64,000 nt of DNA from Gammaproteobacteria bacterium (GTDB lineage Bacteria; Pseudomonadota; Gammaproteobacteria; Eutrophobiales; Eutrophobiaceae), in the NCBI GenBank assembly GCA_965243205.1, contig CBDEUK010000002.1:1216001-1280000 (forward strand). The letters run 5' to 3'. Positions 1,560-63,677 of this stretch are shown in pieces. Positions within the stretch are counted from its first letter, which is position 1. Each line of letters opens with the position of its first letter. A program made the position numbers and the translations under genes. Under the pieces are notes generated by a model that did no database searches, was not told the origin of the DNA, and saw only the letters and a list, made by a program, of their open reading frames with translations.

Positions 1560-3080
1560 ATGCAAGAATTAACACCTGAAAATATAAAAACAAATTTATT
1601 AAGTGGTTTAACCGTTGCGTTAGCAATGGTACCTGAGGCTATTGCCTTTGCTTTAATCGCTCATGTATCACCTTTGACAGGACTCTATGCTGCTTTTTTA
1701 ATTTGCTTAATCACATCAGTTATCGGTGGAAGACCTGGTATGATTTCAGGTGCTGCGGGGGCATTAGCCGTGGTTATGGTGGCATTAGTTGTAGAACATG
1801 GAGTCGAATATTTATTCGCTGCGATTGTATTAATGGGTGTGTTTCAACTCATTTTTGCCGCTTGTCGGTTAGGAAAGTTTATTCGTATGGTACCCCACCC
1901 TGTCATGCTTGGGTTTGTGAATGGCTTAGCTATGGTCATTTTTCTAGCACAGTTTAATCATTTCAAAATAGAAAATGAAAATGGTATAAACCAATGGATG
2001 TCGGGTATGCCGCTTTATACCATGGCAATGTTAATAGCTATTACGATTGCTATTATTTATTTGCTACCCAAATTTACTAAAGCCATTCCATCAACCCTCG
2101 CTGCTATCTTAGTTGTTTCATTAGCTGTAATAGGTTTAGACATTGATACCAAAACCGTTGGCGACTTAGGTTCGATCGGTGGAGGCTTACCAACTTTTCA
2201 TCTTCCAGATGTTCCGTTTAATCTAGAAACCTTAAAAATTGTTTTGCCTTATTCATTGATACTCGCTGCTGTGGGATTAATCGAAACTTTATTAACCTTA
2301 AACTTGATCGATGATATGACTGACACGCGAGGAATGCCAAATACAGAGTCGATGGCACAAGGTATTGCGAATGTCGTCACAGGATTATTTGGTGGCATGG
2401 GCGGTTGTGCGATGATTGGTCAAAGTATGATTAATATTAACAACGGCGCCTTACATCGTTTATCAGGAATCGCTACCGCTGTATTTCTTTTATCATTTAT
2501 TTTATTCGCATCAACCTGGATTGAGATGATTCCATTAGCAGCATTAATTGGTGTGATGTTTGTTGTTGCAGAAAAAACATTTGAATGGGGAAGTTTTCGT
2601 TTATTCGGTCGCGTTCCTAAACCCGATATCGTTGTTGGTTTATTAGTCGCAATTATTACTGTGTTTGCAGACTTAGCGATTGCCGTGATCGTTGGTGTTA
2701 TCTTCTCAGCCTTAGTGTTTGCATGGGAACATGCCAAGCAAATCAATGTTAAATCATCAACTGATGGCAAAGGCTGGAAAAACTATGAACTGAATGGTTC
2801 TTTATTCTTTGCCTCAGTAACGGAGTTTCAAAGTTTATTCACTCCGAAAGAAGATCCAAACGATGTCGTCATTGATTTTCAAAATGCCAAGGTAATGGAT
2901 CACTCAGCGTTAGAAGCCATTGATAACTTAGCAGCAAAATATATTGAACTCGGTAAAAGTTTGCACCTAAAACATCTCAGTGCTGATTGTTTAGAATTAT
3001 TGGATAAAGCCAAAGGCATGATCGAAATAAATGTGTTAGAAGATCCTAAGTATCATATAGCGGATGATAAGTTAGGTTAA
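1560..3080 (+). CDS. SulP/SLC26-family anion transporter with C-terminal STAS domain
   Basis: LSGLTVALAMVPEAIAF, GGRPGMISGAAGA, GGCAMIGQS; STAS-like LNGSLFFAS..IDF...MDHSA. Confidence 0.92.
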   Translation: MQELTPENIKTNLLSGLTVALAMVPEAIAFALIAHVSPLTGLYAAFLICLITSVIGGRPGMISGAAGALAVVMVALVVEHGVEYLFAAIVLMGVFQLIFAACRLGKFIRMVPHPVMLGFVNGLAMVIFLAQFNHFKIENENGINQWMSGMPLYTMAMLIAITIAIIYLLPKFTKAIPSTLAAILVVSLAVIGLDIDTKTVGDLGSIGGGLPTFHLPDVPFNLETLKIVLPYSLILAAVGLIETLLTLNLIDDMTDTRGMPNTESMAQGIANVVTGLFGGMGGCAMIGQSMININNGALHRLSGIATAVFLLSFILFASTWIEMIPLAALIGVMFVVAEKTFEWGSFRLFGRVPKPDIVVGLLVAIITVFADLAIAVIVGVIFSALVFAWEHAKQINVKSSTDGKGWKNYELNGSLFFASVTEFQSLFTPKEDPNDVVIDFQNAKVMDHSALEAIDNLAAKYIELGKSLHLKHLSADCLELLDKAKGMIEINVLEDPKYHIADDKLG

Positions 3081-3130
3081 AATATCAATTGAATATAGAT
3101 TTCAATTATATACTTACTATAATATAACTA

Positions 3131-3228
3131 CATTTTTAAAACAGGAGGTTACAAAATGCCAAAACTAACTAATTACATTATACGTAACTTATTCCTTCTA
3201 ATATTCTCATATAACGCATTGTCATAGC
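3131..3228 (+). promoter_or_regulatory. Leader/attI-like module heading cassette array A (R core changed GTT>GTC)
   Basis: 48/65 nt identical, ungapped, to 60412-60476. Ends in tcaTATAA-cgcattG^TCATAGC. GTCATAGC is one mismatch from the reverse complement of GCTATAAC (3713) after the first cassette gene. Confidence 0.65.
3156..3227 (+). CDS. Putative 23-aa leader peptide MPKLTNYIIRNLFLLIFSYNALS spanning the attI-like site
   Basis: AGGAGGT SD at 3143-3149, ATG 3156, stop 6 nt before the first cassette ATG; homologous frame at 60437-60496. Confidence 0.5.
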   Translation: MPKLTNYIIRNLFLLIFSYNALS

Positions 3229-3233
3229 TAAAT

Positions 3234-3710
3234 ATGAGTGAATATTTTCATTACATTAATCATTCCAAAAAACAACGTTTTAGCATTGGTGAATTTGGAA
3301 ATTCGGATAAATTTTCTGGAATTGGATATGGTCTAAGCGCTAGAGCATTTGCACTTTTATTAACGGAATCAAATGACCATGATATTAAAATGAAAGATAC
3401 GTTGTTTGGAAGCTGGATTGGTGATGAAATTCAATGTATAGGTGATCATGGCAACATACAAGATAAATATTTTGGCTATGATGAAATCATATTTGAAATT
3501 GTGACCATGTTGATATCTGCTGGAGATTTAGAAGAAATTATTGAAGCATCAAAATTGGATAATGGGCTTTTTTCAAAACTTTGTGAATATGTATTTATGT
3601 CAAATGATAATGTCCTTGAAAACTATATTTGTAAAGCGCATGGTTTAACTTGGAAGAAAAAATATAAGGAGTTAACACCGAATTATATAAAAAATAATAA
3701 CGAGTATTAA
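3234..3710 (+). CDS. Hypothetical protein (cassette A1)
   Basis: 158-aa ORF between the attI-like site and an attC-like site; no family recognised. Confidence 0.7.
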   Translation: MSEYFHYINHSKKQRFSIGEFGNSDKFSGIGYGLSARAFALLLTESNDHDIKMKDTLFGSWIGDEIQCIGDHGNIQDKYFGYDEIIFEIVTMLISAGDLEEIIEASKLDNGLFSKLCEYVFMSNDNVLENYICKAHGLTWKKKYKELTPNYIKNNNEY

Positions 3711-3712
3711 AT

Positions 3713-3770
3713 GCTATAACTGTTTAATACAGTCGATTTTAGTATGATCAGCTGAATTTAAACTTTATAA
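3713..3770 (+). repeat. Degenerate attC site
   Basis: GCTATAAC-tgttt-AATACAGTCGA...GCTGAATT-taaac-TTTATAA; same layout as attC 60846-60903, with the R' G replaced by T. Confidence 0.65.
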
Positions 3771-3865
3771 CTATAAATACATATGGATTACTTATATCAA
3801 AGAGCTAATGTACCTAATGCAATATTATGTTCCAATAAATTGCGAAATTAGGCAGAAGAAACATC

Positions 3866-4216
3866 ATGAAAGATTTCACACTAGAACCAATTTCAGATAT
3901 TGAAGTGTTTTTAACTCAATTTTTTACAAACGGTATGTTTATTTTATACGCCTTATCAGTAATTATATTTTTAGTAGCTTGTTTTATTCTTATTTTCAAA
4001 AGCCAAGCTAATGGAAGATACTTAATGCTATATGGTCTTTTAATTTATATAGTATCTAGTATTATTTGGTTCTTAAAATATCCACCTAATAATATTACTG
4101 ATTATAATGAATCAGTTGTATTACCTCTGCCTATGTATATGTTTATGATTTCATTATCCATATTTGTATTTATTATAGGTTTTTTACGATTTGTACTTTG
4201 GGCAATAAGACGCTAG
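3866..4216 (+). CDS. Hypothetical membrane protein (cassette-like)
   Basis: 116 aa with three hydrophobic segments; preceded by ATTAGGC (R'-like). Confidence 0.65.
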   Translation: MKDFTLEPISDIEVFLTQFFTNGMFILYALSVIIFLVACFILIFKSQANGRYLMLYGLLIYIVSSIIWFLKYPPNNITDYNESVVLPLPMYMFMISLSIFVFIIGFLRFVLWAIRR

Positions 4217-4225
4217 TTATTCACA

Positions 4226-4657
4226 ATGTTGAAAATTGGATGTTCAATAATAAGTCTATGGGCCGTGTTAAATTTGTTAGCATCCCTAATTCTTGTGTTA
4301 ATTCCAGTGCTGGGTTTGGGCGAGTCTGCTCCAGCATTGTTAGAGTCTCTTTCCACTGCCACAATAAAAAATATAGACCCAAAAGTTTTATCTAATGCTA
4401 ATTCAATTGCAGTCTATGCAAATACACTGAATATTGCTGCTTCAATATCGATACTCTTTATTGTGTGGTTTGGTGTTTATAATAAAAAAAAGTGGTCGCT
4501 AGCTGCATTATTTTTAATATTAAGTTTAATGCTAAGCGCTGGTTTTTTTTCTGATTATGTATCTAAGCATGATCATATATTCATTAATATAGTATCTGGT
4601 ACAATAATATTTATTGGATTGCTATTTTCAATCTTAGGTATTTACAAACCAAAATGA
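4226..4657 (+). CDS. Hypothetical membrane protein (cassette)
   Basis: 143 aa, about four TM segments; flanked by GTTATTCA and TGAATAAC. Confidence 0.7.
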   Translation: MLKIGCSIISLWAVLNLLASLILVLIPVLGLGESAPALLESLSTATIKNIDPKVLSNANSIAVYANTLNIAASISILFIVWFGVYNKKKWSLAALFLILSLMLSAGFFSDYVSKHDHIFINIVSGTIIFIGLLFSILGIYKPK

Positions 4658-5586
4658 ATAACAATTATTCTATTCCAAAGTTAATATGGTGGTTTCAATT
4701 CAATCTCTATAGTAATAAGACAATATGTAATTTAAAATTTTTTTATTGTTTTTTGATTTTATGTACCTTAACTGGCTGTTCTGCTTTCAGACCATTAGAT
4801 AATGATTCTCCAGTTCGTGAAGATTTCAAGATCCTTCAAGAAGATAGCCGTATTTTATACAAGCCATCTGCTATCCAGAATGCTCGAACTTTAATCCAAT
4901 ATATTGACTCTTCAATTTCGGCTGTAGAACAAGTACATGGCGAAAAGTTTTCTAAACAAGTAATTATTCATGTTTGTGATACCGAAGAGTGTTTTCAACA
5001 ATATACTCATAATCATTCCACAATTGCAGCAGCTGTTAGCGAAAATGGTTTATTTTTGTCGCCTAGAGCATTTCGAGAAAACCAACAGCAGTACTTCTTA
5101 ACTCATGAACTATCACACCTTCATTTGTTTCAACAGATTTCTTTATTACGTACTTGGTATATCCCACAATGGTTTCATGAAGGACTCGCAACTATGGCTG
5201 CAGATGGTGGTGGCGGACATAAAGTAAGTAAAAAAGATGCCATTGAATACATTCAATCAGGAAAACATTTTATACCAATTCATTCTTCTGGCTTATTTGG
5301 TGAAGGAGGAGCATTTAGTAATCGATGGCCGTTAAACTATACTGCTCCAAACGATGATAAATTTCTGCAAAATATGAATTATCGGCAAGCATCGCTATTC
5401 TTAGAATATTTGTCTAAAGATAATCAGATTCAAAATGTTCTGAGAGACATTGAAAAAGGCGAAAGTTTTGAGCGCGCTTTTTTTAAAGCCTTTGATAAAA
5501 AACCAAATGAGGTATGGGATAAGTTTATACAACAATTAAACTCTAACAAGAACATTAAAAATCATTTAAAAAATGATGCAGGTTAG
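4654..5586 (+). CDS. Putative zinc metallopeptidase (gluzincin / peptidase MA-like) lipoprotein; true start uncertain
   Basis: HELSH (HExxH) plus PQWFHEGLA; lipobox-like LTGC; the first ~20 codons overlap an attC remnant. Confidence 0.7.
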   Translation: MNNNYSIPKLIWWFQFNLYSNKTICNLKFFYCFLILCTLTGCSAFRPLDNDSPVREDFKILQEDSRILYKPSAIQNARTLIQYIDSSISAVEQVHGEKFSKQVIIHVCDTEECFQQYTHNHSTIAAAVSENGLFLSPRAFRENQQQYFLTHELSHLHLFQQISLLRTWYIPQWFHEGLATMAADGGGGHKVSKKDAIEYIQSGKHFIPIHSSGLFGEGGAFSNRWPLNYTAPNDDKFLQNMNYRQASLFLEYLSKDNQIQNVLRDIEKGESFERAFFKAFDKKPNEVWDKFIQQLNSNKNIKNHLKNDAG

Positions 5587-5640
5587 ATTTATAAAATATT
5601 ACTTACATTTATATCGTAGCCTTAAGGAAATATTAAATAA

Positions 5641-6021
5641 ATGAACAAGATATTACTAATATTAATTTTAACTACATTGTCTAGTTGTGCTTCTATAAAC
5701 ACACCAAGTTCTTCTCTTATAGATAAAGTATCTGTTGTAACAGTTGGTGAAACTTCTGGTGTGCAAGAAGAGCATATTGTTTTCATTCCAGCAAATACTG
5801 AATTTCCTATCCAGTTTTCCCTAAAAGGTAATATTTTCAACAAAGATTTATCATCCACGGTAATGGCTAGTTTCAAAAAAGATCTCTATCTATATAAATA
5901 TTGGGCAAGTCTGGATGGTAAAAATTGGGTAAATTCACATCAGTTAATAGATGTTAAACCATCAGGAGGATTTGATAAATCAGGTGGTAAAGTCGAAGTT
6001 CAATTAGATTTAGCTCAATAA
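5641..6021 (+). CDS. Hypothetical lipoprotein
   Basis: MNKILLILILTTLSSC lipobox. Confidence 0.7.
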   Translation: MNKILLILILTTLSSCASINTPSSSLIDKVSVVTVGETSGVQEEHIVFIPANTEFPIQFSLKGNIFNKDLSSTVMASFKKDLYLYKYWASLDGKNWVNSHQLIDVKPSGGFDKSGGKVEVQLDLAQ

Positions 6022-6029
6022 ATGAAGCT

Positions 6030-6383
6030 ATGATGAGTATATTGCTAATATTTCTAATAGCATTTATTATTTTTAGTTCTTTTGTAATTGCGTCTTATCC
6101 TTTTTTAAAATGGTCAGGTGTAAAAACTAATCTATGGAGTAGATCTTTGAAGTTTGGTGCGGCTATTTCAGGAATTTGGCTCTTAACCCAAATCCCATTC
6201 AAAATTATTTTCGGCGGTTTTTTTGGACTAATTTTTGGCTTTTTAGCAACTTATTTTTACATCAAGGCTAAACTTGATTTAACATCAGGTAAAAATCTTA
6301 TAATTGTTTTTTTGTTACCAATTTTAGCGGGGATTATTGCAACTCCGTTATTAATAACAGTGTTTAAAAAATTTTCAACATAA
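6030..6383 (+). CDS. Hypothetical membrane protein (cassette-like)
   Basis: 117-aa hydrophobic ORF whose stop lies within an ACATAAC R'' box. Confidence 0.65.
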   Translation: MMSILLIFLIAFIIFSSFVIASYPFLKWSGVKTNLWSRSLKFGAAISGIWLLTQIPFKIIFGGFFGLIFGFLATYFYIKAKLDLTSGKNLIIVFLLPILAGIIATPLLITVFKKFST

Positions 6384-6401
6384 CCAGTCATTCCAGTCAA
6401 C
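6378..6401 (+). repeat. attC 5' half (truncated)
   Basis: ACATAAC-cagt-CATTCCAGTCAAC resembles the R''/L'' of 60846 and 62680; no 3' half seen. Confidence 0.6.
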
Positions 6402-6424
6402 TTCCTATGTCTACTTAATTTAAT

Positions 6425-6922
6425 ATGAATGATGAAATAATAGCATGGGACGGCAAGTCTACTGATGATATTAGTTCAGTGTATGAAAAGTATCATAGCA
6501 AACCTAACTTTATAGATAATATTCTCTCTCAAATACATGATGTATCTATCCAGAAAGGTGGTACATGGTTGTTGAAAAAATGGTTAGAGTCAGGAAATAA
6601 GCTTAAAGTTGAACATATAAAAATAATATATGATTCACTACATGTATTGGAGCATTGGGAATCTAAACTTCATGTACTACAAATTTTACAATATATGCCT
6701 ATAGATAGCGTTCAAAAAACCAAAGTAGAATCATTTCTTAGAATAACATTAACAGATGATAATAAATTTATAAGGGCTTGGTCTTATAATGGGTTTTATG
6801 AGCTAGCTTCTCAACATCCAGAATACATGGAAGAGGTTAAACAATTTTTCGAGATTGCGTTACAAGATGAAGCCGCTTCTGTAAAAGCTAGAATTCGGAA
6901 TATAATAAAAAAAGGTTTTTAG
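6425..6922 (+). CDS. Hypothetical helical (HEAT/ARM-like) protein
   Basis: 165 aa; NKFIRAWSYNGF and EAASVKARIRNI resemble helical-repeat proteins. Confidence 0.6.
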   Translation: MNDEIIAWDGKSTDDISSVYEKYHSKPNFIDNILSQIHDVSIQKGGTWLLKKWLESGNKLKVEHIKIIYDSLHVLEHWESKLHVLQILQYMPIDSVQKTKVESFLRITLTDDNKFIRAWSYNGFYELASQHPEYMEEVKQFFEIALQDEAASVKARIRNIIKKGF

Positions 6923-7037
6923 AAAAAATATATAAAGGCGAAGATTTTATGACTGCTTTTAATATAAATAAAACTATCATCACATTACAAAAAGCAAGTC
7001 ACTAATTACAACTTTATTCCGATAGTTAAAATTAATA

Positions 7038-8816
7038 TTAATTAATAATTTGTTGTTTAATATCGACGATCATATCCAGCAACTCTTCTAGAGTATTATC
7101 ATCAATACCATGACTGGATAATACTGAAACAAAATGTTGCACTAAAATTTTCCAGTCTTGTTCATCTATCTGCATATCATTATGCACTTCATTCATCTTC
7201 CTGCCAGTATATTTGTAAGGCCCTCCACTCATATCGCATATGTAATCAACCAAGTATTTTTTTTCCATTCTTATGCTATCTATTCCTCTATTTTGCCAAT
7301 GTCTACCTAATTGAGGATCTGAGCGTAATTTAGCTAATAAATCATCAATGAACTGTGTGATTTTAGTAATCCCACCAATTTTAGAATAAAGCGAATTTTT
7401 TTCTGGCTTTGAAATATTTAAAGATTTTATTCTTGAACTTAACGTTGACGAATTCATTCCTAGAAGCTTGGCTGCTCCATTTTCACCTGAAACACGCCAT
7501 GCCGTTCTTTCTAATGCATTAATAATATTATTTCGTTCAATTTGTTTAAGAATGATATCTGGAATAATCGTTTGTTTGTTTGAGTGGCTGATTCCATTAA
7601 AGTCAGTGCTAATTTGTTTCAGTGCTTGTTGAGGTAAAGCAAGATCAATTCTTAAGTGACCGTCGGATAAAATCACAGCTCTCTCAATCACATTTTTTAA
7701 TTCACGAATATTGCCAGGCCAGTCATAGTCTTGAAGCATGTTCAATTGCTCTTCAGTAAAACTTCCTATTTGTTTATCAAACTCTGTTTTTGCTATTTCA
7801 ACAAAATACTGTGCAAGCGGAACAATATCATCTTTTCTTTTCCTAAGAGGTGGCACCGTAATTGGAAACACACTAAGTCGATAGTAAAGATCCTCACGAA
7901 AACTCCCTTGTTCCACTTCGTGTTCTAAGTCACGGTTAGTCGCAGCAATAATACGAACATTAACTTCACGCGTTACGTTTTCCCCTACACGTTCAAATGA
8001 TTTTTGTTGAATTGAACGAAGTAATTTACTTTGTAAATCAATTGGAATTTCGCCGACTTCATCTAAAAACAAGGTTCCATTATGCGCAAGTTCAAAACGT
8101 CCGATTCTATCTTGAACTGCACCTGAAAAAGCACCTTTAACATGTCCAAAAAATTCACTTTCAAATAGTTCAGAAGGGATGGATGCGCAATTAACCGTTA
8201 TTAACGGCGCTTCTTTTCGATTACTCTTTTCATGGATAAGCCGTGCTACCATCTCTTTACCAGAACCTGACTCTCCTACAATGAGTACAGATGCATCTGT
8301 ATTAGCAACGGATTTAATCCTTTCAACCATTTGTAATAATGCAGGACTAGCACCGACCATGTCTCCAACATCTCGAATCTGTAACTTTTCTTCCCTTAAA
8401 TAATTTCGCTCCATGACCAGTTTTGAATTTAATTTGTCCAGTTCCTTTAAAGCACTTTCTTTTTCTTTTACATTTTCATAATACTTAGACACATTAATAA
8501 TGGTCCAAAGAATATCAAAATCATTTTTATGTTTATTTATGACACGTGTGTAAGCCAATAATCTTGAGGTTATATCTTGGAAATTAAATTTAAGTTCGAT
8601 TTGTCCTTGATTTAAAGAGCGTTCGTTTTTTAAAAATAATTCTAATTTCTTTAACGGCTTGAAGTGTTCAGTCATATTAGAAGCCATTAATTGTTCTGAA
8701 TCTGCATTCAATTGCTCTATGAACATATGATTAGAATTTTTAATCACACCTTTGCTATCAGTCACACAAATCATAATCGGCAGTGAATTTATATCTATCG
8801 GCTGCATATCTTTCAT
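7038..8816 (-). CDS. Sigma54-dependent enhancer-binding protein: PAS-like / AAA+ / HTH / C-terminal truncated-hemoglobin domain
   Basis: GESGSGKE, ESEFFGHVKGAFSGA, GTLFLDEVGE, FREDLYYRL, WPGNIRELKN, GAAKLLGM; then SLYSKIGG...MSGGPYKYTGRKMNEVH (group I trHb pattern). Confidence 0.9.
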   Translation of the reverse strand: MKDMQPIDINSLPIMICVTDSKGVIKNSNHMFIEQLNADSEQLMASNMTEHFKPLKKLELFLKNERSLNQGQIELKFNFQDITSRLLAYTRVINKHKNDFDILWTIINVSKYYENVKEKESALKELDKLNSKLVMERNYLREEKLQIRDVGDMVGASPALLQMVERIKSVANTDASVLIVGESGSGKEMVARLIHEKSNRKEAPLITVNCASIPSELFESEFFGHVKGAFSGAVQDRIGRFELAHNGTLFLDEVGEIPIDLQSKLLRSIQQKSFERVGENVTREVNVRIIAATNRDLEHEVEQGSFREDLYYRLSVFPITVPPLRKRKDDIVPLAQYFVEIAKTEFDKQIGSFTEEQLNMLQDYDWPGNIRELKNVIERAVILSDGHLRIDLALPQQALKQISTDFNGISHSNKQTIIPDIILKQIERNNIINALERTAWRVSGENGAAKLLGMNSSTLSSRIKSLNISKPEKNSLYSKIGGITKITQFIDDLLAKLRSDPQLGRHWQNRGIDSIRMEKKYLVDYICDMSGGPYKYTGRKMNEVHNDMQIDEQDWKILVQHFVSVLSSHGIDDNTLEELLDMIVDIKQQIIN

Positions 8817-9069: not shown

Positions 9070-9555
9070 TTGGAGAAAGTAATTATGAAAAAAATTCAAA
9101 AATTTATTTTTTGTTTATTAGCGTTAGGTATTGTGAATGCCTACGCTCATGAAATGGGTTCAAATATAAAACCCATTGCATTAGGAGCTGATCAAACCAT
9201 TATTGATTTTGACAAAATAGTTTGGTCGCCGCTCGAAGTTGATGGCCTTGATAAAGGCGCTGAGATTGCGGTTATTCGTGGTGACTTAAGCAAAGACGGT
9301 AGTGAAGTTATCATAAAAACGCCTGCTGGCTATTATGTAAACATGCATTCCCATACCAGTGATGAAACCTATATTTGGCTTCATGGTGCTTATACACTGA
9401 TTAGCGAAAATGGTAAGAAACATAAATTCCCCAGTGGCAAAGGCTATATTAGTTTTCCTGGAAATGCTCCTAAACATGCTTTGACATGTGATGCAAAAGA
9501 CTACTGCTTGTTGTACGTAAAATGGTCTAGACCTTTCGACATCATATATGACTAA
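9070..9555 (+). CDS. Exported cupin-fold protein (DUF4437-like); likely start MKKIQ at ~9085
   Basis: Signal peptide ending VNAYA; cupin motif PAGY...HSHTSDE...PG..KH. Confidence 0.75.
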   Translation: MEKVIMKKIQKFIFCLLALGIVNAYAHEMGSNIKPIALGADQTIIDFDKIVWSPLEVDGLDKGAEIAVIRGDLSKDGSEVIIKTPAGYYVNMHSHTSDETYIWLHGAYTLISENGKKHKFPSGKGYISFPGNAPKHALTCDAKDYCLLYVKWSRPFDIIYD

Positions 9556-9578
9556 GAAAATGACAAGGAATAGATAAT

Positions 9579-10016
9579 ATGAAAACTAAAACAATAACTT
9601 TAAATACACTAGCCTTAATGATGATGTTTACGAGTCCAAGTGCTTTTTCAAATGACTCTTTATACAGTCGGCTTGGGGGATATGACGCAGTTGCTGCAGT
9701 GGTTGATGATTTAATGAATCGTCTTGCAAACGATCAGCAAGTTGGTCGTGTATTAAAACATATCCCAGAGTCACGTTTTAATCATATCAGACAAATGATG
9801 GTAGATTTTGTATGTGAAGCGACTGGCGGACCTTGTAAATATATCGGTCAGACTATGGAAATAGCTCATCGTGGCATGGGATTAAATGAAAGTGATTGGA
9901 AATTAACCGTGAATCATTTACAACATACATTGAGTGAGTTTAATGTCCCTACAAATGAAAAAAATGAATTAATCAATATACTTGCTACGTTAAAACCTGC
10001 AATTGTTGATAGTTAA
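9579..10016 (+). CDS. Group I truncated hemoglobin with signal peptide
   Basis: SLYSRLGGYDAVAAVVDD, VCEATGGPCKYIG..MEIAHRGM (proximal His); N-terminal signal ending SAFS. Confidence 0.9.
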   Translation: MKTKTITLNTLALMMMFTSPSAFSNDSLYSRLGGYDAVAAVVDDLMNRLANDQQVGRVLKHIPESRFNHIRQMMVDFVCEATGGPCKYIGQTMEIAHRGMGLNESDWKLTVNHLQHTLSEFNVPTNEKNELINILATLKPAIVDS

Positions 10017-60324: not shown

Positions 60325-60353
60325 TTGACACTACTATTACCAACATATAGATT
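60325..60353 (+). promoter_or_regulatory. Candidate cassette promoter (Pc)
   Basis: TTGACA-N17-TAGATT pointing into array B. Confidence 0.6.
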
Positions 60354-60411: not shown

Positions 60412-60497
60412 CATTTGAAAAAAAGGAGGTTGCAAAACGCTCAAGTCAATGAATTCCATTATAAGGAATTCATTCCCGTATAATAGACTGTTATGAG
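60412..60497 (+). promoter_or_regulatory. Leader/attI-like module heading cassette array B
   Basis: Homologous to 3131-3195; simple site cccgTATAA-tagactG^TTATGAG; TTATGAGT is the reverse complement of ACTCATAA (60844) at the end of the first cassette. Confidence 0.7.
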
Positions 60498-60888
60498 TAA
60501 ATTTATAAATAATACAATATTAATTATCTTACTTCTCGTGAGTAATACTTTGTTCGCTGAAATAGAATCAGTTGATATATTCAATGGTGAATTTCAGCAT
60601 ATATTAAAAATTCAAGAAGAACCAAAAATTTCCAAATTCAATAAACTTTGGAAAACTAAGAAGGAAATGAAAGTCAAAATAAAAATAAATTGGGCACTAG
60701 GATACAGACTTTATTTAAGAGGAGACTCTGACTCAGGTCTTTGGCTATGCTATGACGGTTGGTTAATGCCATTGTCGGCAAAAACAAAGTCTGGCTTATA
60801 TAAGTTAGAATCTAACTCCAATTTTGAAGCTTTATTTAGCCCAACTCATAATAAACCATTCCAGCCGACCGCTTACACGGCCGGCTGA
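60493..60888 (+). CDS. Hypothetical exported protein (cassette B1), reads into its attC
   Basis: Signal peptide ending TLFA; C-terminal HNKPFQPTA is attC-encoded. Confidence 0.7.
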   Translation: MSKFINNTILIILLLVSNTLFAEIESVDIFNGEFQHILKIQEEPKISKFNKLWKTKKEMKVKIKINWALGYRLYLRGDSDSGLWLCYDGWLMPLSAKTKSGLYKLESNSNFEALFSPTHNKPFQPTAYTAG

Positions 60889-60903
60889 ATTCAACCGTTA
60901 GGT
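60846..60903 (+). repeat. attC site B1
   Basis: TCATAAT-aaacc-ATTCCAGCCG...CGGCTGAATT-caacc-GTTAGGT. Confidence 0.85.
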
Positions 60904-60928
60904 TTCAAATAACAAAAAAGGAGAAATT

Positions 60929-61450
60929 ATGTCTGCAATCATGGTAGATATTGAAAGCGACGGACCAATCCCAGGAGATTATTCAATGGTTTCCTTTGGT
61001 GCAGTCATTGTTGATCAAAAATTAGATAAAACGTTTTACGGTAAAATTAAACCAATAAGTGAGAAATGGATACCTGAAGCGCTCGCTGTTTCAGGTCATA
61101 CTCGTGAGGAAACTCTCGAGTTTGGAGAACCGGTGAAAGTAATGGGAGACTTTGCGAGCTGGTTGAAAGAAAATAGTAATGGTAAACCAATATTCTATAG
61201 CGATAATAATGGTTTTGATTGGCAATTTATCAATTGGTACTTTCACCACTTTACTGGAAGTAACCCCTTTGGGTTTAGCTCTACGAATTTAGGGTCTTTA
61301 TACAAAGGTATGGTAAAAGATATATTCAAAAACTTTAAACATCTGAGAAAAACAAAACATACTCACAATCCAGTAGATGATGCATTGGGTAATGCTGAAG
61401 CACTTTTGCACTTAAAGAATGAGATGGGTTTAAAAATTAGTCTTAAGTAA
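60929..61450 (+). CDS. DEDDh 3'-5' exonuclease-family protein (cassette B2)
   Basis: MVDIESDGP, DNNGFDWQF, HTHNPVDDA; GGAG SD. Confidence 0.85.
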   Translation: MSAIMVDIESDGPIPGDYSMVSFGAVIVDQKLDKTFYGKIKPISEKWIPEALAVSGHTREETLEFGEPVKVMGDFASWLKENSNGKPIFYSDNNGFDWQFINWYFHHFTGSNPFGFSSTNLGSLYKGMVKDIFKNFKHLRKTKHTHNPVDDALGNAEALLHLKNEMGLKISLK

Positions 61451-61535
61451 CCTAACAAGTTGCTCAAGTATACTCCGCCAGCTATGCTGGCTCCGCGGGA
61501 CGCGCAAAAGCGTACCCATTAGCAAAGCGTTATGT
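61450..61535 (+). repeat. attC site B2
   Basis: ACCTAAC-aag-TTGCTCAA...TTAGCAA-agc-GTTATGT; extra C in L''; GC-rich central hairpins. Confidence 0.88.
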
Positions 61536-61553: not shown

Positions 61554-62204
61554 GTGACATGGTATGCAGCAGAAATTCTTGCGGAGCCTAGACCTGAGCT
61601 CTTGCAACGCCTAAGCGCATCGCCCTTACTATTAAAGCATCTCTATTTGCTAAAGGGAGAGTGTAACTATGAATTTCACAGCTCTGAAGTTGCGCATTCG
61701 TTTCCTGAACTTGGAATATTAGTGGCTGGCCATTTTTTTGAACCAGGAACACATGGCGAAAGCTGGTTTGACGAGAATTTTATCTCATGGCACGAGTTTT
61801 CTTCTCCTCCTTCACCAAGCTTAAGTTCACTTCTTAATAGATTAAAAGAAATAGAACCCATTGAGGCAGATGATTTTCCGCCTGAGGCCTTTCTGGGGTA
61901 CGTCGAAGCTCTATCAAGAGAATGCAAAGCTAACATTGGTTTTTATAATTGCTTTATGTGGGGTGGTGATATTGAATATGAGGTCACGTATCTATTTCTA
62001 CCAAATCAAGAGCCATCAGCGTTAATAACGAAAACCGGTATTGGCCACACAGTAGTAAGTCCCACGGATATCACTAACGTCAAAGGAAAAGATGCGTTGC
62101 AAAGCACATTGGTATATTTTGGGCTAGAGTTAGAGCAACCATTTTTTGCTCCTCATACTCGGGGTTTTAACTGGTCCCCTTATGCTTGTCATAAAATCAC
62201 ATAA
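61554..62204 (+). CDS. Hypothetical protein (cassette B3)
   Basis: 216-aa ORF, GTG start after AGGAGG; visibly more GC-rich than its neighbours. Confidence 0.7.
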   Translation: MTWYAAEILAEPRPELLQRLSASPLLLKHLYLLKGECNYEFHSSEVAHSFPELGILVAGHFFEPGTHGESWFDENFISWHEFSSPPSPSLSSLLNRLKEIEPIEADDFPPEAFLGYVEALSRECKANIGFYNCFMWGGDIEYEVTYLFLPNQEPSALITKTGIGHTVVSPTDITNVKGKDALQSTLVYFGLELEQPFFAPHTRGFNWSPYACHKIT

Positions 62205-62273
62205 TAATTGTATTCACATGGAAAATTTGTTCTGCTACACGCCGCAAATTCCCGGCGATGCAGTACGTTAGGC
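62199..62273 (+). repeat. attC site B3
   Basis: ACATAAT...TGTATTCAC..GAAAATTTG...CAAATTCC..GCGATGCA-gtac-GTTAGGC. Confidence 0.8.
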
Positions 62274-62276
62274 TTT

Positions 62277-62672
62277 ATGAAAATCTTATTTTTAATTTTA
62301 TTAATCTCAATATCTTCTTGTTCAAAAGTAGATAATGAATATAAATCATTAATTGGGCATTGGACTTGGCATGTTGAGGATCAAGGATTTGGAGAATCTG
62401 GCTTTGTTAAACTTAATAAAGACAAAACCTACACATATTTAATTGAGTCATGGAATCCTACTGAAAAGTTAGCTTTAGATTTCACAGAAAACAATATGAA
62501 CTATTGGCATATAAATAATGAATCTATTTGTTTCAGTAATTCAAAAAATATTGATAGTATTTTAGAAAATAATTGTATATTTCAAATTAAATACTTAGGC
62601 AATTCAATATATAAGCCTTTTATTAAAGGTATTTTTTTACAAGGAGAAATAGAATTAAAGAAAGTAAAATGA
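62277..62672 (+). CDS. Hypothetical lipoprotein (cassette B4)
   Basis: MKILFLILLISISSC lipobox; LIGHW lipocalin-like motif; start placed just after R'. Confidence 0.7.
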   Translation: MKILFLILLISISSCSKVDNEYKSLIGHWTWHVEDQGFGESGFVKLNKDKTYTYLIESWNPTEKLALDFTENNMNYWHINNESICFSNSKNIDSILENNCIFQIKYLGNSIYKPFIKGIFLQGEIELKKVK

Positions 62673-62679
62673 CATTAAA

Positions 62680-62711
62680 GCCTAAAAACTCATTCCAGCG
62701 AACCGCTAGCT
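62680..62711 (+). repeat. Collapsed attC site B4
   Basis: GCCTAAA-aact-CATTCCAGCGAACC-GCTAGCT; L' half missing. Confidence 0.7.
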
Positions 62712-62715
62712 AGCA

Positions 62716-63609
62716 ATGAAAATTTTTCAAAGAAATCACATCAAAAAAATCACGATTATTTTACTTGTATTATTTGCATTAATTTTTAGCACATCCTGGC
62801 ATGTAGGAGGGAAACTTGTTGCTTCTACTAATCATCCTGTTTCGCCTCCAATAGATCTTAATATTTCTAAGTTTTCTATCGAAAGCGAATCTGGAGCTCA
62901 TATCGCTGGTTGGCATATCCCTCTAGATGATCCTAAAGGTATAGTTATGTTGTTACATGGGATTAGAAGCTCACGTTCTGCAATGATCGAGCGCGCACGT
63001 TTATTTAATAGAAACGGCTTTGCGGTAATGATGATCGACTTTCAAGCTCATGGTGAAAGCCTAGGTGAAACCATTACAATTGGTCATCTTGAGAAACATG
63101 ATGTTGTTGCTTTAGTTAATTATACTCGGAAATTATATGCATCTTTACCAATCGTCACTTTAGGAGTTTCAATGGGAGGAGCTGCAGCCTTACTCGCATC
63201 ACCGCTAAATGTAGACGCACTAATTCTCGAATCGGTATACCCTGACATACGAACAGCGGTAAAAAACAGAGTTCGAAAACGCGTTGGGCCACTCTATTGG
63301 ATACCATCTGAATTACTTCTGGCCCAACTGGGCCCCAGACTAGGAATAGAACTACACGAGCTACGACCAATTGATTACATAGAGAAAGTTAATTGCCCTG
63401 TATTCATAATTTCAGGCCTTGAAGATCAACATACTACTATCGAAGACACAAATACTATTTTCGAAAATGCCGCTCAACCAAAAGAATTATGGTTGATAGA
63501 GAATGCAGGGCATATTGATTTATATAACGCTGCCAAAGAGGAATATGAATCTAAAATAATCAATTTTCTCAATGAACATATTGAAGTACTAAATCAAGAT
63601 ACCAGCTAA
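62716..63609 (+). CDS. Alpha/beta hydrolase (cassette B5)
   Basis: LLHGIR, DFQAHGES, GVSMGG, GLEDQH, AGHIDL. Confidence 0.9.
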   Translation: MKIFQRNHIKKITIILLVLFALIFSTSWHVGGKLVASTNHPVSPPIDLNISKFSIESESGAHIAGWHIPLDDPKGIVMLLHGIRSSRSAMIERARLFNRNGFAVMMIDFQAHGESLGETITIGHLEKHDVVALVNYTRKLYASLPIVTLGVSMGGAAALLASPLNVDALILESVYPDIRTAVKNRVRKRVGPLYWIPSELLLAQLGPRLGIELHELRPIDYIEKVNCPVFIISGLEDQHTTIEDTNTIFENAAQPKELWLIENAGHIDLYNAAKEEYESKIINFLNEHIEVLNQDTS

Positions 63610-63660
63610 CAAATCATCCTAGCCGATCGCTAACGTGACAAACTAGATTCGAATTTTATA
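63604..63660 (+). repeat. Degenerate attC site B5
   Basis: AGCTAAC-aaatc-ATCCTAGCCGATCGC resembles the B1 5' half; 3' half eroded. Confidence 0.55.
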
Positions 63661-63677
63661 TATAAGAGAGTTAAATA

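What the first reader, a model, noticed from the sequence alone, without database searches (positions are those of the whole stretch)
3131..3228. Same attI-like leader module heads two separate integrase-less cassette arrays 57 kb apart
Seen: 3131-3195 aligns without gaps to 60412-60476 (48/65 identical; shared blocks CATTT, AGGAGGTT.CAAAA.GC, AATT.CATTATA.G.AA.T.ATTCC). Both run into TATAA-N6-G^T(T/C)AT, immediately followed by a cassette whose far end is the complementary R'' box. Each module sits directly downstream of an ordinary chromosomal gene (sulP; PHP phosphoesterase), with only ~150-180 bp before the first cassette, so there is no room for intI. Known: integrons normally carry intI beside attI, the class 1 attI simple site has the same TAA-7nt-TTA geometry, and CALINs are attC clusters without an integrase. 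Inference: this genome carries several dispersed 'satellite' attI platforms that capture and express cassettes using an integrase supplied in trans, rather than random fragments of one array.
Basis: partly seen in the sequence, partly recalled or inferred. Interest (0 to 1): 0.9.

Follow-up and report, generated by a model that had tools for sequence, protein, structure and literature searches.

The report
Orphan integron attI heads on cassette arrays
Two diverged copies of an integron entry site, each with its ribosome-binding site and a short leader reading frame but no integrase gene, head two decaying gene-cassette arrays, and the same genome holds at least three more such heads.

Summary
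Window 3131-3195 and 60412-60476 are 48/65 identical (60/86 with one 12-nt, in-frame gap up to the cassette boundary). They are the only two copies in the 2.79-Mb genome.

Each copy contains AGGAGGTT, a short leader ORF, two direct repeats (TTCC..TATAA), and an inverted core TATAAY-N5-GTYAT. Each ends exactly where a cassette begins. The first 8 nt of each cassette match its own attC R'' box at 7/8.

The module is not an attC, a dif site or an Rfam RNA.

Support for an attI reading:
- The core of copy 2 matches, in register, the attI beside a long-form integron integrase in a same-genus genome and another genus. This link is modest.
- A second leader family in this genome, heading two more integrase-less arrays, is clearly homologous to the attI beside intI in two related genera.
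- A third junction matches a third attI type.
- The same-genus relative carries 99%-identical duplicates of truncated intI plus attI.

Against current activity:
- The genome's single intI is 0.7 Mb away and has a dissimilar attI.
- No cognate integrase or remnant is present.
- Both arrays show mutated crossover and R'' bases and relic attCs.

Verdict: orphan attI expression heads of decayed integron arrays. Capture in trans today is unproven and unlikely at these two loci.

The parts
1560..3080 (+). sulP-type sulfate permease with STAS domain; co-oriented gene directly upstream of module copy 1
   Evidence: Pfam Sulfate_transp 9.1e-48, STAS 3.1e-07
3131..3220 (+). Module A copy 1: attI-like head, from the start of homology to the base before the crossover G
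   Evidence: 48/65 ungapped and 60/86 gapped identity to copy 2; unique pair in the genome
3143..3150 (+). Shine-Dalgarno block AGGAGGTT
   Evidence: Coordinates. The octamer occurs 40 times in the genome on both strands, and 4 of these lie 58-70 nt before the four orphan crossovers
3156..3227 (+). Leader ORF: ATG 8 nt after the SD, 23 codons, stop TAG lying inside the first cassette's core
   Evidence: The cassette ATG at 3234 has no SD of its own
3171..3183 (+). Direct repeat 1 (AATTACATTATAC), counterpart of 60452-60465
   Evidence: Comparable TTCC..TATAA repeats occur in the attIs of relatives
3208..3228 (+). Core site: L-box CATATAAC, 5-nt spacer, crossover G(3221)|TCATAGC. The crossover triplet reads GTC, not GTT
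3222..3770 (+). Cassette 1 of the left array: ORF 3234-3710 (no Pfam family) plus relic attC 3714-3770, whose R' reads TTTAT
   Evidence: attC model 17.4 bits, E 0.018 in the 4.1-kb region and E 0.28 in the window; Pfam
4656..4712 (+). Relic attC
   Evidence: 13.4 bits, E 0.17 in the 4.1-kb region
6378..6432 (+). Relic attC: left half conserved, right half decayed
   Evidence: 11.3 bits
59462..60316 (+). PHP-domain phosphoesterase; co-oriented gene upstream of module copy 2
   Evidence: Pfam PHP 2.8e-11; ortholog in G001 at 57% identity
60374..60386 (+). Upstream copy of CCCGTATAAYAGA, a 12/13 direct repeat of 60475-60487
60412..60489 (+). Module A copy 2: attI-like head
60424..60431 (+). Shine-Dalgarno block AGGAGGTT
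60437..60496 (+). Leader frame, 19 codons, in the same frame as copy 1. ACG stands where copy 1 has ATG, and an in-frame ATG lies at 60449. The stop TGA overlaps the cassette ATG (ATGA)
60452..60465 (+). Direct repeat 1 (AATTCCATTATAAG); also the 5' arm of a GAATTCC/GGAATTC hairpin
60476..60497 (+). Core site: CCGTATAAT-AG-ACT, crossover G(60490)|TTATGAG. 15 of 17 bases match the attI beside long intI in G001 and G013, in register
60491..60903 (+). Cassette 1 of the right array: ORF 60493-60888 and attC 60846-60903
   Evidence: attC model 74.6 bits; R'' reads CTCATAAT, with AAT instead of AAC
60898..61535 (+). Cassette 2: exonuclease-like ORF 60929-61450; attC of another type at 61450-61535
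   Evidence: Pfam Rv2179c-like and RNase_T. GTTAGGT is complementary to ACCTAAC at 7/7. attC model 16.7 bits
61530..62273 (+). Cassette 3: ORF 61554-62204; R'' ACATAAT at 62199-62205; R' GTTAGGC at 62267-62273
   Evidence: Read by eye, coordinates; not detected by the attC model
62268..62712 (+). Cassette 4, with a truncated attC whose R'' GCCTAAA is at 62680-62686
62716..63661 (+). Alpha/beta-hydrolase ORF and decayed attC 63604-63661
   Evidence: Pfam Hydrolase_4 1.1e-17; attC model 40.6 bits

Best explanation
The module is the cassette-proximal part of an integron attI region that has no integrase gene beside it. It contains a strong ribosome-binding site, a short leader reading frame that runs across the site and stops in or at the first cassette, two direct repeats, and an inverted core whose right arm carries the crossover G|TT.

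Two diverged copies sit just behind co-oriented host genes (sulP and PHP), and each heads a cassette array. Different cassettes were recombined into each copy at the same base, so the site once worked as an attI.

Today the attI type's own integrase class is not found in the genome, and the recombination-critical bases of both arrays have decayed. The heads most likely survive as expression devices. Transcription would read in from the upstream gene or a weak local promoter. The leader frame would bring ribosomes to a first-cassette start codon that has no ribosome-binding site of its own, as ORF-11 does in attI1.

Shown:
- the homology of the pair;
- the cassette boundaries;
- the absence of intI and of intI remnants;
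- the decay of the arrays;
- attI homology of the sister family B.

Inferred:
- attI ancestry of family A, from a short in-register match;
- translational coupling;
- loss of recombination activity.
For: (1) The pair is real and unique: 48/65 and 60/86 identity, blastn E 1.5e-4 genome-wide, and nhmmer finds only these two copies.

(2) Each module ends at a cassette boundary defined independently by the cassette's own attC. The R''/R' complement is 7/8 in both. The same test gives 8/8 at the resident attI and at most internal boundaries.

(3) The two first cassettes are unrelated, and the arrays share no cassettes (tblastx and blastn found nothing). The junction was therefore used at least twice.

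(4) Leader architecture: SD AGGAGGTT, start 8 nt later, the same frame kept across a 12-nt (4-codon) indel, and a stop supplied by the cassette core. The first-cassette ATG lies 3 or 13 nt after the crossover and has no SD. This matches the description of ORF-11 in attI1 in PMC8876359 (passages read).

(5) Of the 40 AGGAGGTT octamers in the genome, 4 lie 58-70 nt before the four orphan crossovers.

(6) Family B, in the same genome at C2:265774(-) and C2:57093(+), heads two more intI-less arrays. It matches the attI region beside intI in G007:C4 and G003:C231 (nhmmer E 2.5e-22 and 3.5e-23; blastn 77% over 152 nt ending at ATA|GTTA).

(7) The core of copy 2 (CCGTATAAT..ACT|GTT) is 15/17 identical and in register with the attI beside long intI in G001:C37 (same genus) and G013.
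- A core profile of 9 such attIs, built without the module, ranks this junction 3rd in the genome, and the hit ends exactly at G|TT.
- In an ungapped 18-nt in-register test, 8 of 154,476 GT[TC] sites reach its 13 matches.

(8) No intI remnant lies within 12 kb of any orphan head (tblastn at E up to 50). No long-IntI N-terminal match is found in G000.

(9) Decay:
- the crossover reads GTC in copy 1;
- R'' reads AAT, AAT or AAA in 3 of 4 right-array cassettes;
- some attCs are truncated or relic.

(10) G001 carries two 99%-identical duplicates of the first ~345 nt of long intI plus attI, each behind a co-oriented gene. This shows how such heads arise.
Against: - The link of family A to a known attI rests on a short stretch. 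The profile hit is not significant genome-wide (8.4 bits, E 11).
- A profile of the full G001 and G013 attIs does not retrieve either copy.
- Free local alignment against shuffles gives p of only 0.015-0.06 for copy 2, and nothing for copy 1.
- Copy 2 has ACG where the leader start should be, and family B copy 265 has ATT. Translational coupling may therefore be impaired in half of the heads.
- 4 of 7 distinct long-IntI attIs examined show no leader ORF under my criteria.
- Promoter-like matches are no more frequent than in shuffles.
- No expression data were available.
Confidence: 0.62

Rival explanations
1. One reading: the modules are working satellite attI platforms that still capture cassettes, using an integrase supplied in trans by the single intI 0.7 Mb away.
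For: - Different first cassettes sit at the same crossover in the two copies.
- The repeats and core are the best-conserved blocks of the module besides the SD.
- In G001, one truncated-intI plus attI duplicate (C10) is 99% identical to the master up to the crossover and then carries a different first cassette.
- In G001, the other duplicate (C31) shares cassettes with the master in a mosaic whose break lies right after an attC GTTA.
- The resident IntI is intact (503 bits to TIGR02249).
Against: - The resident attI is dissimilar to the module (local alignment z 0.1 and -1.3).
- The resident IntI is only 60% identical to the catalytic core of the long IntIs that own this attI type.
- Copy 1 has GTC at the crossover.
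- 3 of 4 R'' boxes in the right array have lost AAC, and the left array has only relic attCs.
- The G001 pattern can equally be explained by events at the master copy before duplication.
Confidence: 0.2
2. The cassettes entered at non-classical genomic sites (attG or secondary sites) that happen to lie at the end of two paralogous small leader genes. The module would never have been part of an integron.
For: - Cassette insertion outside att sites is documented (bioRxiv 10.1101/2022.09.11.507474, passages read).
- The family A link to a known attI is statistically modest.
- The PHP-lipA site is empty in G001.
Against: - Two independent insertions at the same base of two paralogous sequences require a specific site.
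- The core of copy 2 matches the relatives' attI in register.
- The parallel family B is demonstrably an attI.
- The module was not found as a free-standing element. The pattern gave 0 hits in 400 class genomes other than G000, and 0 in genome contigs and metagenome contigs.
Confidence: 0.08
3. The conserved module is a regulatory leader (small peptide, attenuator or structured RNA) unrelated to recombination.
For: - The reading frame is kept across a 4-codon indel, with CGT/AGG and TTG/CTG synonymous differences.
- Copy 2 folds into a hairpin with z -2.52.
Against: - There is no Rfam family.
- The fold of copy 1 has z -1.14.
- The peptide is not conserved with the leaders of relatives, whereas the DNA core is.
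- The module ends exactly at cassette boundaries.
Confidence: 0.05
4. The module is a degenerate attC of a lost upstream cassette, or a Xer/dif-like site.
For: - TATAAC-like boxes lie 87-101 nt upstream of the core in both loci.
- The core has an inverted-repeat layout typical of tyrosine-recombinase sites.
Against: - The attC covariance model gives no hit on either strand at E up to 10.
- No long hairpin forms.
- No site within 7 mismatches of the dif consensus lies at the modules. The genome's dif-like site is at C2:339097.
Confidence: 0.03

Closest known systems
CALIN (cluster of attC sites lacking an integron integrase; Cury et al. 2016, PMC4889954, passages read)
   Same: [quoted passage not shown] Proposed origins include integrase loss.
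   Different: That paper could not look for attI because it is unknown for most integrons, and it found intI pseudogenes near only 15 of 279 CALINs. Here the head of the array is identified as attI-derived, no intI trace remains, and several heads of three attI types coexist in one genome.
attI1 with ORF-11 of class 1 integrons (review PMC8876359, passages read)
   Same: An SD and start codon lie inside attI. A short ORF spans the crossover, its stop is supplied by the first cassette's core, and it couples translation to cassettes lacking their own initiation region.
   Different: There is no sequence similarity. The ORFs are longer (18-32 codons). The setting is chromosomal, there is no adjacent intI, and two of the four heads have non-ATG codons at the start position.
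attI beside long-form IntI in G001:C37 and G013:C208
   Same: The core CCGTATAAT..ACT|GTT, two TCC.TATAA direct repeats, and an SD-led leader ORF.
   Different: Only about 17 nt are clearly alike. The spacing between repeats differs (19 and about 31 nt against 26 nt), and the leader peptides are unrelated. Those sites have a 465-codon intI next to them.
attG / secondary-site insertions and SALINs (Loot et al., bioRxiv 10.1101/2022.09.11.507474, passages read)
   Same: Cassettes sit outside a complete integron and are expressed from host signals.
   Different: attG sites share no sequence beyond a short consensus. Here the heads are conserved, paralogous and attI-like.
Xanthomonas CALINs at conserved loci and degraded intI at ilvD (bioRxiv 10.1101/2025.06.18.660453, passages read)
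   Same: Arrays persist after loss of integrase activity, and CALINs sit next to particular host genes.
   Different: No attI analysis of CALIN heads appears in the passages I read. Here intI is wholly absent from the loci.

Membership tests
integron attI site | Lies immediately 5' of the first cassette, with the crossover at a conserved G|TT | tested here: met
   Boundaries were fixed by the R'' complement at 7/8 each. Copy 2 has GTT. Copy 1 has GTC, a one-base departure.
integron attI site | Adjacent integron-integrase gene, usually divergent | tested here: not met
   Only one intI in the genome, at C2:1953335-1954276. No remnant within 12 kb of the heads.
integron attI site | Homology to a site that stands beside an intI | tested here: inconclusive
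   The core of copy 2 is 15/17 in register with the G001 and G013 attI, and 8 of 154,476 sites do as well. Full-length profiles fail, and copy 1 is linked only through copy 2. For sister family B this feature is met (E about 1e-22).
integron attI site | Integrase binding to L/R boxes and direct repeats; recombination with attC | not testable with these tools
   Sequence layout only: TATAAY-N5-GTYAT and two TTCC..TATAA repeats.
CALIN | [quoted passage not shown] | tested here: met
   Right array: 74.6 and 40.6 bits plus 16.7 bits. Left array: only relics at 17.4, 13.4 and 11.3 bits, so membership of the left array is inconclusive.
ORF-11-type attI leader (translational coupling) | SD plus start inside attI; ORF crosses the crossover; stop from the cassette core; first cassette lacks its own SD | tested here: met
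   Copy 1 meets all parts. Copy 2 meets all but the start codon, which is ACG. The function itself was not tested.
attC site | R''-L''...L'-R' imperfect hairpin recognised by an attC covariance model | tested here: not met
   Model R1, built from 19 resident attCs, gives no hit on the modules at E up to 10 with filters off. The model is specific to the resident attC family. A general model was not available.
Xer/dif-type site | Match to the dif consensus arms with a 6-8 nt centre | tested here: not met
   The modules are not among the sites within 7 mismatches. The dif-like site is at C2:339097.
known structured RNA (Rfam) | Match to an Rfam model at gathering score | tested here: not met
   0 matches in the window.

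The most novel reading that the evidence does not exclude
This lineage runs a distributed integron. Units made of attI plus a stub of intI are duplicated behind host genes, as seen at 99% identity in the same-genus genome. They lose the stub and persist as integrase-less entry and expression heads. One genome then holds five or six heads of three attI types. Selection keeps them for their leader-ORF expression function, and they can still be loaded in trans whenever a compatible integrase is present in the cell, whether resident or brought in by transfer.
Probability: 0.2. Interest if true: 0.8.

Novelty: new variant of a known kind. Interest (0 to 1): 0.55.

Why it matters
How CALINs arise is an open question. 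Proposed routes are integrase loss, rearrangement, and insertion at genomic sites. Standard tools cannot see attI outside classes 1-3, so the heads of CALINs have gone unexamined.

Here the heads can be typed by homology to intI-adjacent sites in relatives. They show that several arrays in one small genome each carry their own attI with an ORF-11-like leader.

If this is general, many CALINs are self-contained expression units, and possibly entry sites, rather than debris. The leader-ORF coupling known from class 1 integrons would then be a widespread, ancestral feature of chromosomal attI sites.

Tried and rejected
Tried without result, or rejected:
- **Rfam and tRNA.** Rfam at gathering threshold gave 0 matches. 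The tRNA scan found none.
- **attC reading of the module.** Rejected: no hit of model R1.
- **dif/Xer reading.** Rejected.
- **Third blastn candidate, C2:920346.** It lies inside a coding region, so chance.
- **Module pattern searches.** The pattern was found only in G000 among 401 class genomes. It gave 0 hits in genome contigs and 0 in metagenome contigs. The pattern demands exact matches, so diverged copies would be missed.
- **IntI-relative loci.** 80 loci from genome contigs (57-67% identity) show no similarity to leaders A or B.
- **Profiles built from relatives' attIs.** The profile of the G001 and G013 attIs, and the profile of 9 long-IntI attIs, did not retrieve the modules at significant E-values.
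- **Local alignment against shuffles.** Copy 1 was not significant against any attI. The shuffle there was mononucleotide, not dinucleotide.
- **In-register look-alikes.** C1:312678 and C1:143299 lie in coding sequence, so chance.
- **Left-locus synteny.** Unresolved. sulP has no close ortholog in G001 (31% identity), and the sigma-54 activator has many paralogs.
- **Shared cassettes.** None found between the two arrays.
- **Promoter scan.** Counts were within the shuffle range. A TTGACA-17-TAGATT match at 60325-60353 is noted only as a lead.
- **RNA folds.** z -1.14 and -2.52.
- **Expression data.** No RNA holder was listed.
- **Taxon.** Not determined. The genome lacks a DotI/IcmL match, but nothing rang anywhere in that search, so the result is weak.
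- **The search of earlier findings.** Closed.
- **Supplements.** Supplementary files of papers were not opened. They may hold attI or CALIN tables that bear on novelty.
- **Novelty searches.** These were 38 papers, 15 listed; 10 papers, 8 listed; 319 papers, 12 listed. I read passages of four papers and the abstract and outline of one. I cannot claim that attI-headed CALINs are not in print.

Full report
**1. The observation**

One 12-nt gap carries the alignment to the cassette boundary, giving 60 of 86 identical over 3131-3228 against 60412-60497. Against the whole 2.79-Mb genome (G000, 2 contigs, 36.7% G+C) the reciprocal blastn match has E 1.5e-4. The next candidate (E 0.023) lies in a coding region. 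A profile of the pair finds no third copy; the next hit has E 19. The pair is real and unique.

**2. Anatomy of the module**

Both copies contain:
- AGGAGGTT at 3143-3150 and 60424-60431.
- A short reading frame in the same register.
- A repeat AATT(A/C)CATTATA.
- A second, similar box C(A/G)TATAA(C/T).
- Five bases later, G|T(C/T)AT.

In copy 1 the frame starts at an ATG 8 nt after the SD, has 23 codons, and stops at a TAG lying 4-6 nt past the crossover G. In copy 2 the aligned start is ACG, with an in-frame ATG four codons later. That frame has 19 codons, and its TGA overlaps the ATG of the first cassette ORF.

The 12-nt length difference between the copies is four codons. Two codon pairs differ synonymously: CGT/AGG and TTG/CTG.

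The first-cassette start codons lie 13 and 3 nt after the crossover and have no SD.

**3. The boundaries and the arrays**

I built a covariance model from 19 attC sites of this genome. In the window it finds these sites:

| Position | Score (bits) |
|---|---|
| 60846-60903 | 74.6 |
| 63604-63661 | 40.6 |
| 61450-61535 | 16.7 |
| 3714-3770 | 17.4 |
| 4656-4712 | 13.4 |
| 6378-6432 | 11.3 |

The modules are not hit on either strand.

A cassette's first bases should be complementary to its own R'' box.
- GTCATAGC (3221-3228) against GCTATAAC (3713-3720) gives 7/8.
- GTTATGAG (60490-60497) against CTCATAAT (60845-60852) gives 7/8.
- The same test gives 8/8 at the resident attI and at most internal boundaries elsewhere.

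The modules therefore end exactly where cassettes begin. The two first cassettes are unrelated, and the arrays share nothing.

Both arrays are worn:
- The crossover in copy 1 reads GTC.
- R'' reads AAT, AAT and AAA in three of four right-array cassettes.
- One attC is cut in half.
- The left array has only relics.

**4. The rest of the genome**

There is one integron integrase, at C2:1953335-1954276 (503 bits). It has a canonical attI and at least seven model-detected attCs (C2:1954813-1957585). Its attI bears no likeness to the module.

attC sites of the same family are scattered over about ten further loci. I traced their first-cassette boundaries and found the following.

*Family B.* A second leader family sits at C2:265774(-) and C2:57093(+).
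- It is about 130 nt long.
- It has AAGGAGGTT 63-68 nt before the crossover.
- It has a leader frame ending at or overlapping the first-cassette start.

*Type C.* The junction at C1:268945 reads TGTCTAATTATA|GTTA, against TGTCTAGTTATA|GTTA at the resident attI.

*The SD octamer.* AGGAGGTT occurs 40 times in the genome, and four of these are in the four leaders.

**5. Relatives**

Integron integrases are common in the family: 9 of 26 genomes searched, G000 included, have one. G001, the only other genome of the genus, has three.

*Family B.* It matches the region between intI and the first cassette in G007:C4 and G003:C231 (nhmmer E 2.5e-22 and 3.5e-23). The alignments run up to ATA|GTTA. Family B is therefore an attI.

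*Type C.* The junction is 30/37 identical (my count, read) to the attI of G001:C4.

- G001:C37 and G013:C208 carry a long integrase with an open frame of 464-465 codons. Its N-terminal extension gives a weak Phage_int_SAM_4 match.
- Their attI ends ...GGATTCCGTATAATCAACT|GTT, with a second TCCGTATAAT repeat 26 nt upstream and an SD-led leader ORF of 30-32 codons.
- Copy 2 reads ...ATTCCCGTATAATAGACT|GTT, which is 15 of 17 identical in register.
- A core profile of nine such attIs, built without the module, ranks this junction third in the genome, and the hit ends at the crossover. The score itself (8.4 bits, E 11) is not significant genome-wide.
- In an ungapped 18-nt in-register test, 8 of 154,476 GT[TC] sites do as well. 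The two of the others that I looked at lie in coding sequence.
- Profiles of the whole attI fail to retrieve the module.
- Copy 1 is tied in only through copy 2.

I rate attI ancestry of family A as likely, not proven.

**6. How such heads arise**

G001 holds two further copies of the first ~345 nt of the long intI plus the attI. They are 99% identical to the master, and each sits behind a co-oriented host gene.
- The C31 copy shares the first cassette with the master. The break falls right after an attC GTTA. A second shared block lies deeper in the arrays.
- The C10 copy is identical to the master up to the crossover and then carries a different cassette.

Attached stubs of intI are thus seen in a close relative. 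In G000 no stub remains within 12 kb of any head, and the long-IntI extension is not found.

The integrons of G007, G001 and G013 map to G000 positions 521-541 kb, 1812-1818 kb and 1394-1399 kb. None of these is a G000 orphan locus.

PHP is followed after 44 nt by DUF2288 and lipA in G001. In G000 they are 9.6 kb apart. The head and array form the first part of that insert. Hydrolase, globin, SirB and photolyase genes form the rest.

**7. Reading**

The module is an orphan attI head. It once received cassettes at G|TT. Its cognate integrase class is not found, the resident IntI is only 60% identical to that class, and the arrays are decaying.

The sharply conserved parts are the SD, the frame, the repeats and the core. 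The leader layout matches what is described for ORF-11 in attI1:
- SD and start inside attI;
- an ORF across the crossover;
- a stop from the cassette core;
- coupling to cassettes that lack their own initiation region (PMC8876359, passages).

I therefore take expression of the first cassette as the present function, and recombination as the past function.

**8. Against what is known**

Cury et al. define CALINs. They list integrase loss, rearrangement and secondary-site insertion as origins. They note that attI is unknown for most integrons, and they found intI pseudogenes near 15 of 279 CALINs (PMC4889954, passages).

Loot et al. show insertion at attG sites and suggest that small CALINs and SALINs may arise that way (bioRxiv 10.1101/2022.09.11.507474, passages).

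The Xanthomonas study reports CALINs at conserved loci (passages).

In the papers I read, none types the heads of CALINs as attI. My searches were partial, and supplements were closed, so I claim only that I did not find it.

**9. Limits**

- There are only two copies of the module, so neither selection on the peptide nor RNA structure can be tested.
- The attC model is specific to the resident family.
- The third and fourth right-array attCs were read by eye.
- No expression data were available.
- The taxon was not determined.

Noticed in passing
G000:C2:265774 (L036:4274, minus strand) and G000:C2:57093 (L035:3093): A second leader family (B) heads two further integrase-less arrays whose attCs are well preserved (81, 77, 61 and 53 bits; 66 and 70 bits). 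It is homologous to the attI beside intI in G007:C4 and G003:C231.
   Followed up: yes
G000:C1:268945 (L037) and G000:C2:386589 (L038): Two single-cassette loci have junctions that resemble the resident or G001:C4-type attI: TGTCTAATTATA|GTTA and CATCTAATATCT|GTTATGAG. The second cassette starts with the same 11 nt as the cassette after module copy 2.
   Followed up: partly
L131/L149 (G001:C37), L137/L150 (G013:C208), L141/L155 (G003:C157) and others: A long form of integron integrase (about 465 codons) carries a roughly 145-residue N-terminal extension. The extension gives a weak Phage_int_SAM_4 match, and it was found in 10 of 80 family genomes other than G000, including truncated copies.
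   Followed up: partly
L159 (G001:C10) and L160 (G001:C31): Two 99%-identical duplicates of the first ~345 nt of long intI plus attI, each behind a co-oriented host gene. One carries a different first cassette from the crossover on.
   Followed up: yes
L141 (G003:C157), L142 (G003:C231), L136 (G007:C4): Two integrons with different attI types in G003, both on short contigs, are followed by an apparently identical first-cassette start (GTTATAAAAAATTGTAATAC...). A near-identical start follows the attI in G007.
   Followed up: no
G000:C2:339097-339124 and C2:349964-349991 (outside the window): A dif-like site lies 10.9 kb from a second site that shares the centre and right arm only. This layout is expected for an element integrated by Xer recombination.
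   Followed up: no
window 7038-8816 (-), 9070-10016 (+); L045:822-1247: A sigma-54 activator has an N-terminal PAS domain and a C-terminal bacterial-globin domain. It lies next to a cupin gene and a separate globin gene. Another globin gene lies in the insert after the right array.
   Followed up: no
window 60845-60852, 62199-62205, 62680-62686: Three of the four R'' boxes in the right array have lost the final C of AAC (AAT, AAT, AAA), while their other six or seven bases still complement the cassette starts.
   Followed up: partly
window 3000-7000: G+C drops to 27-32%, against about 37% elsewhere. Seven co-oriented ORFs in this stretch have no significant Pfam family; one has two matches below the curated cut-offs.
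   Followed up: partly
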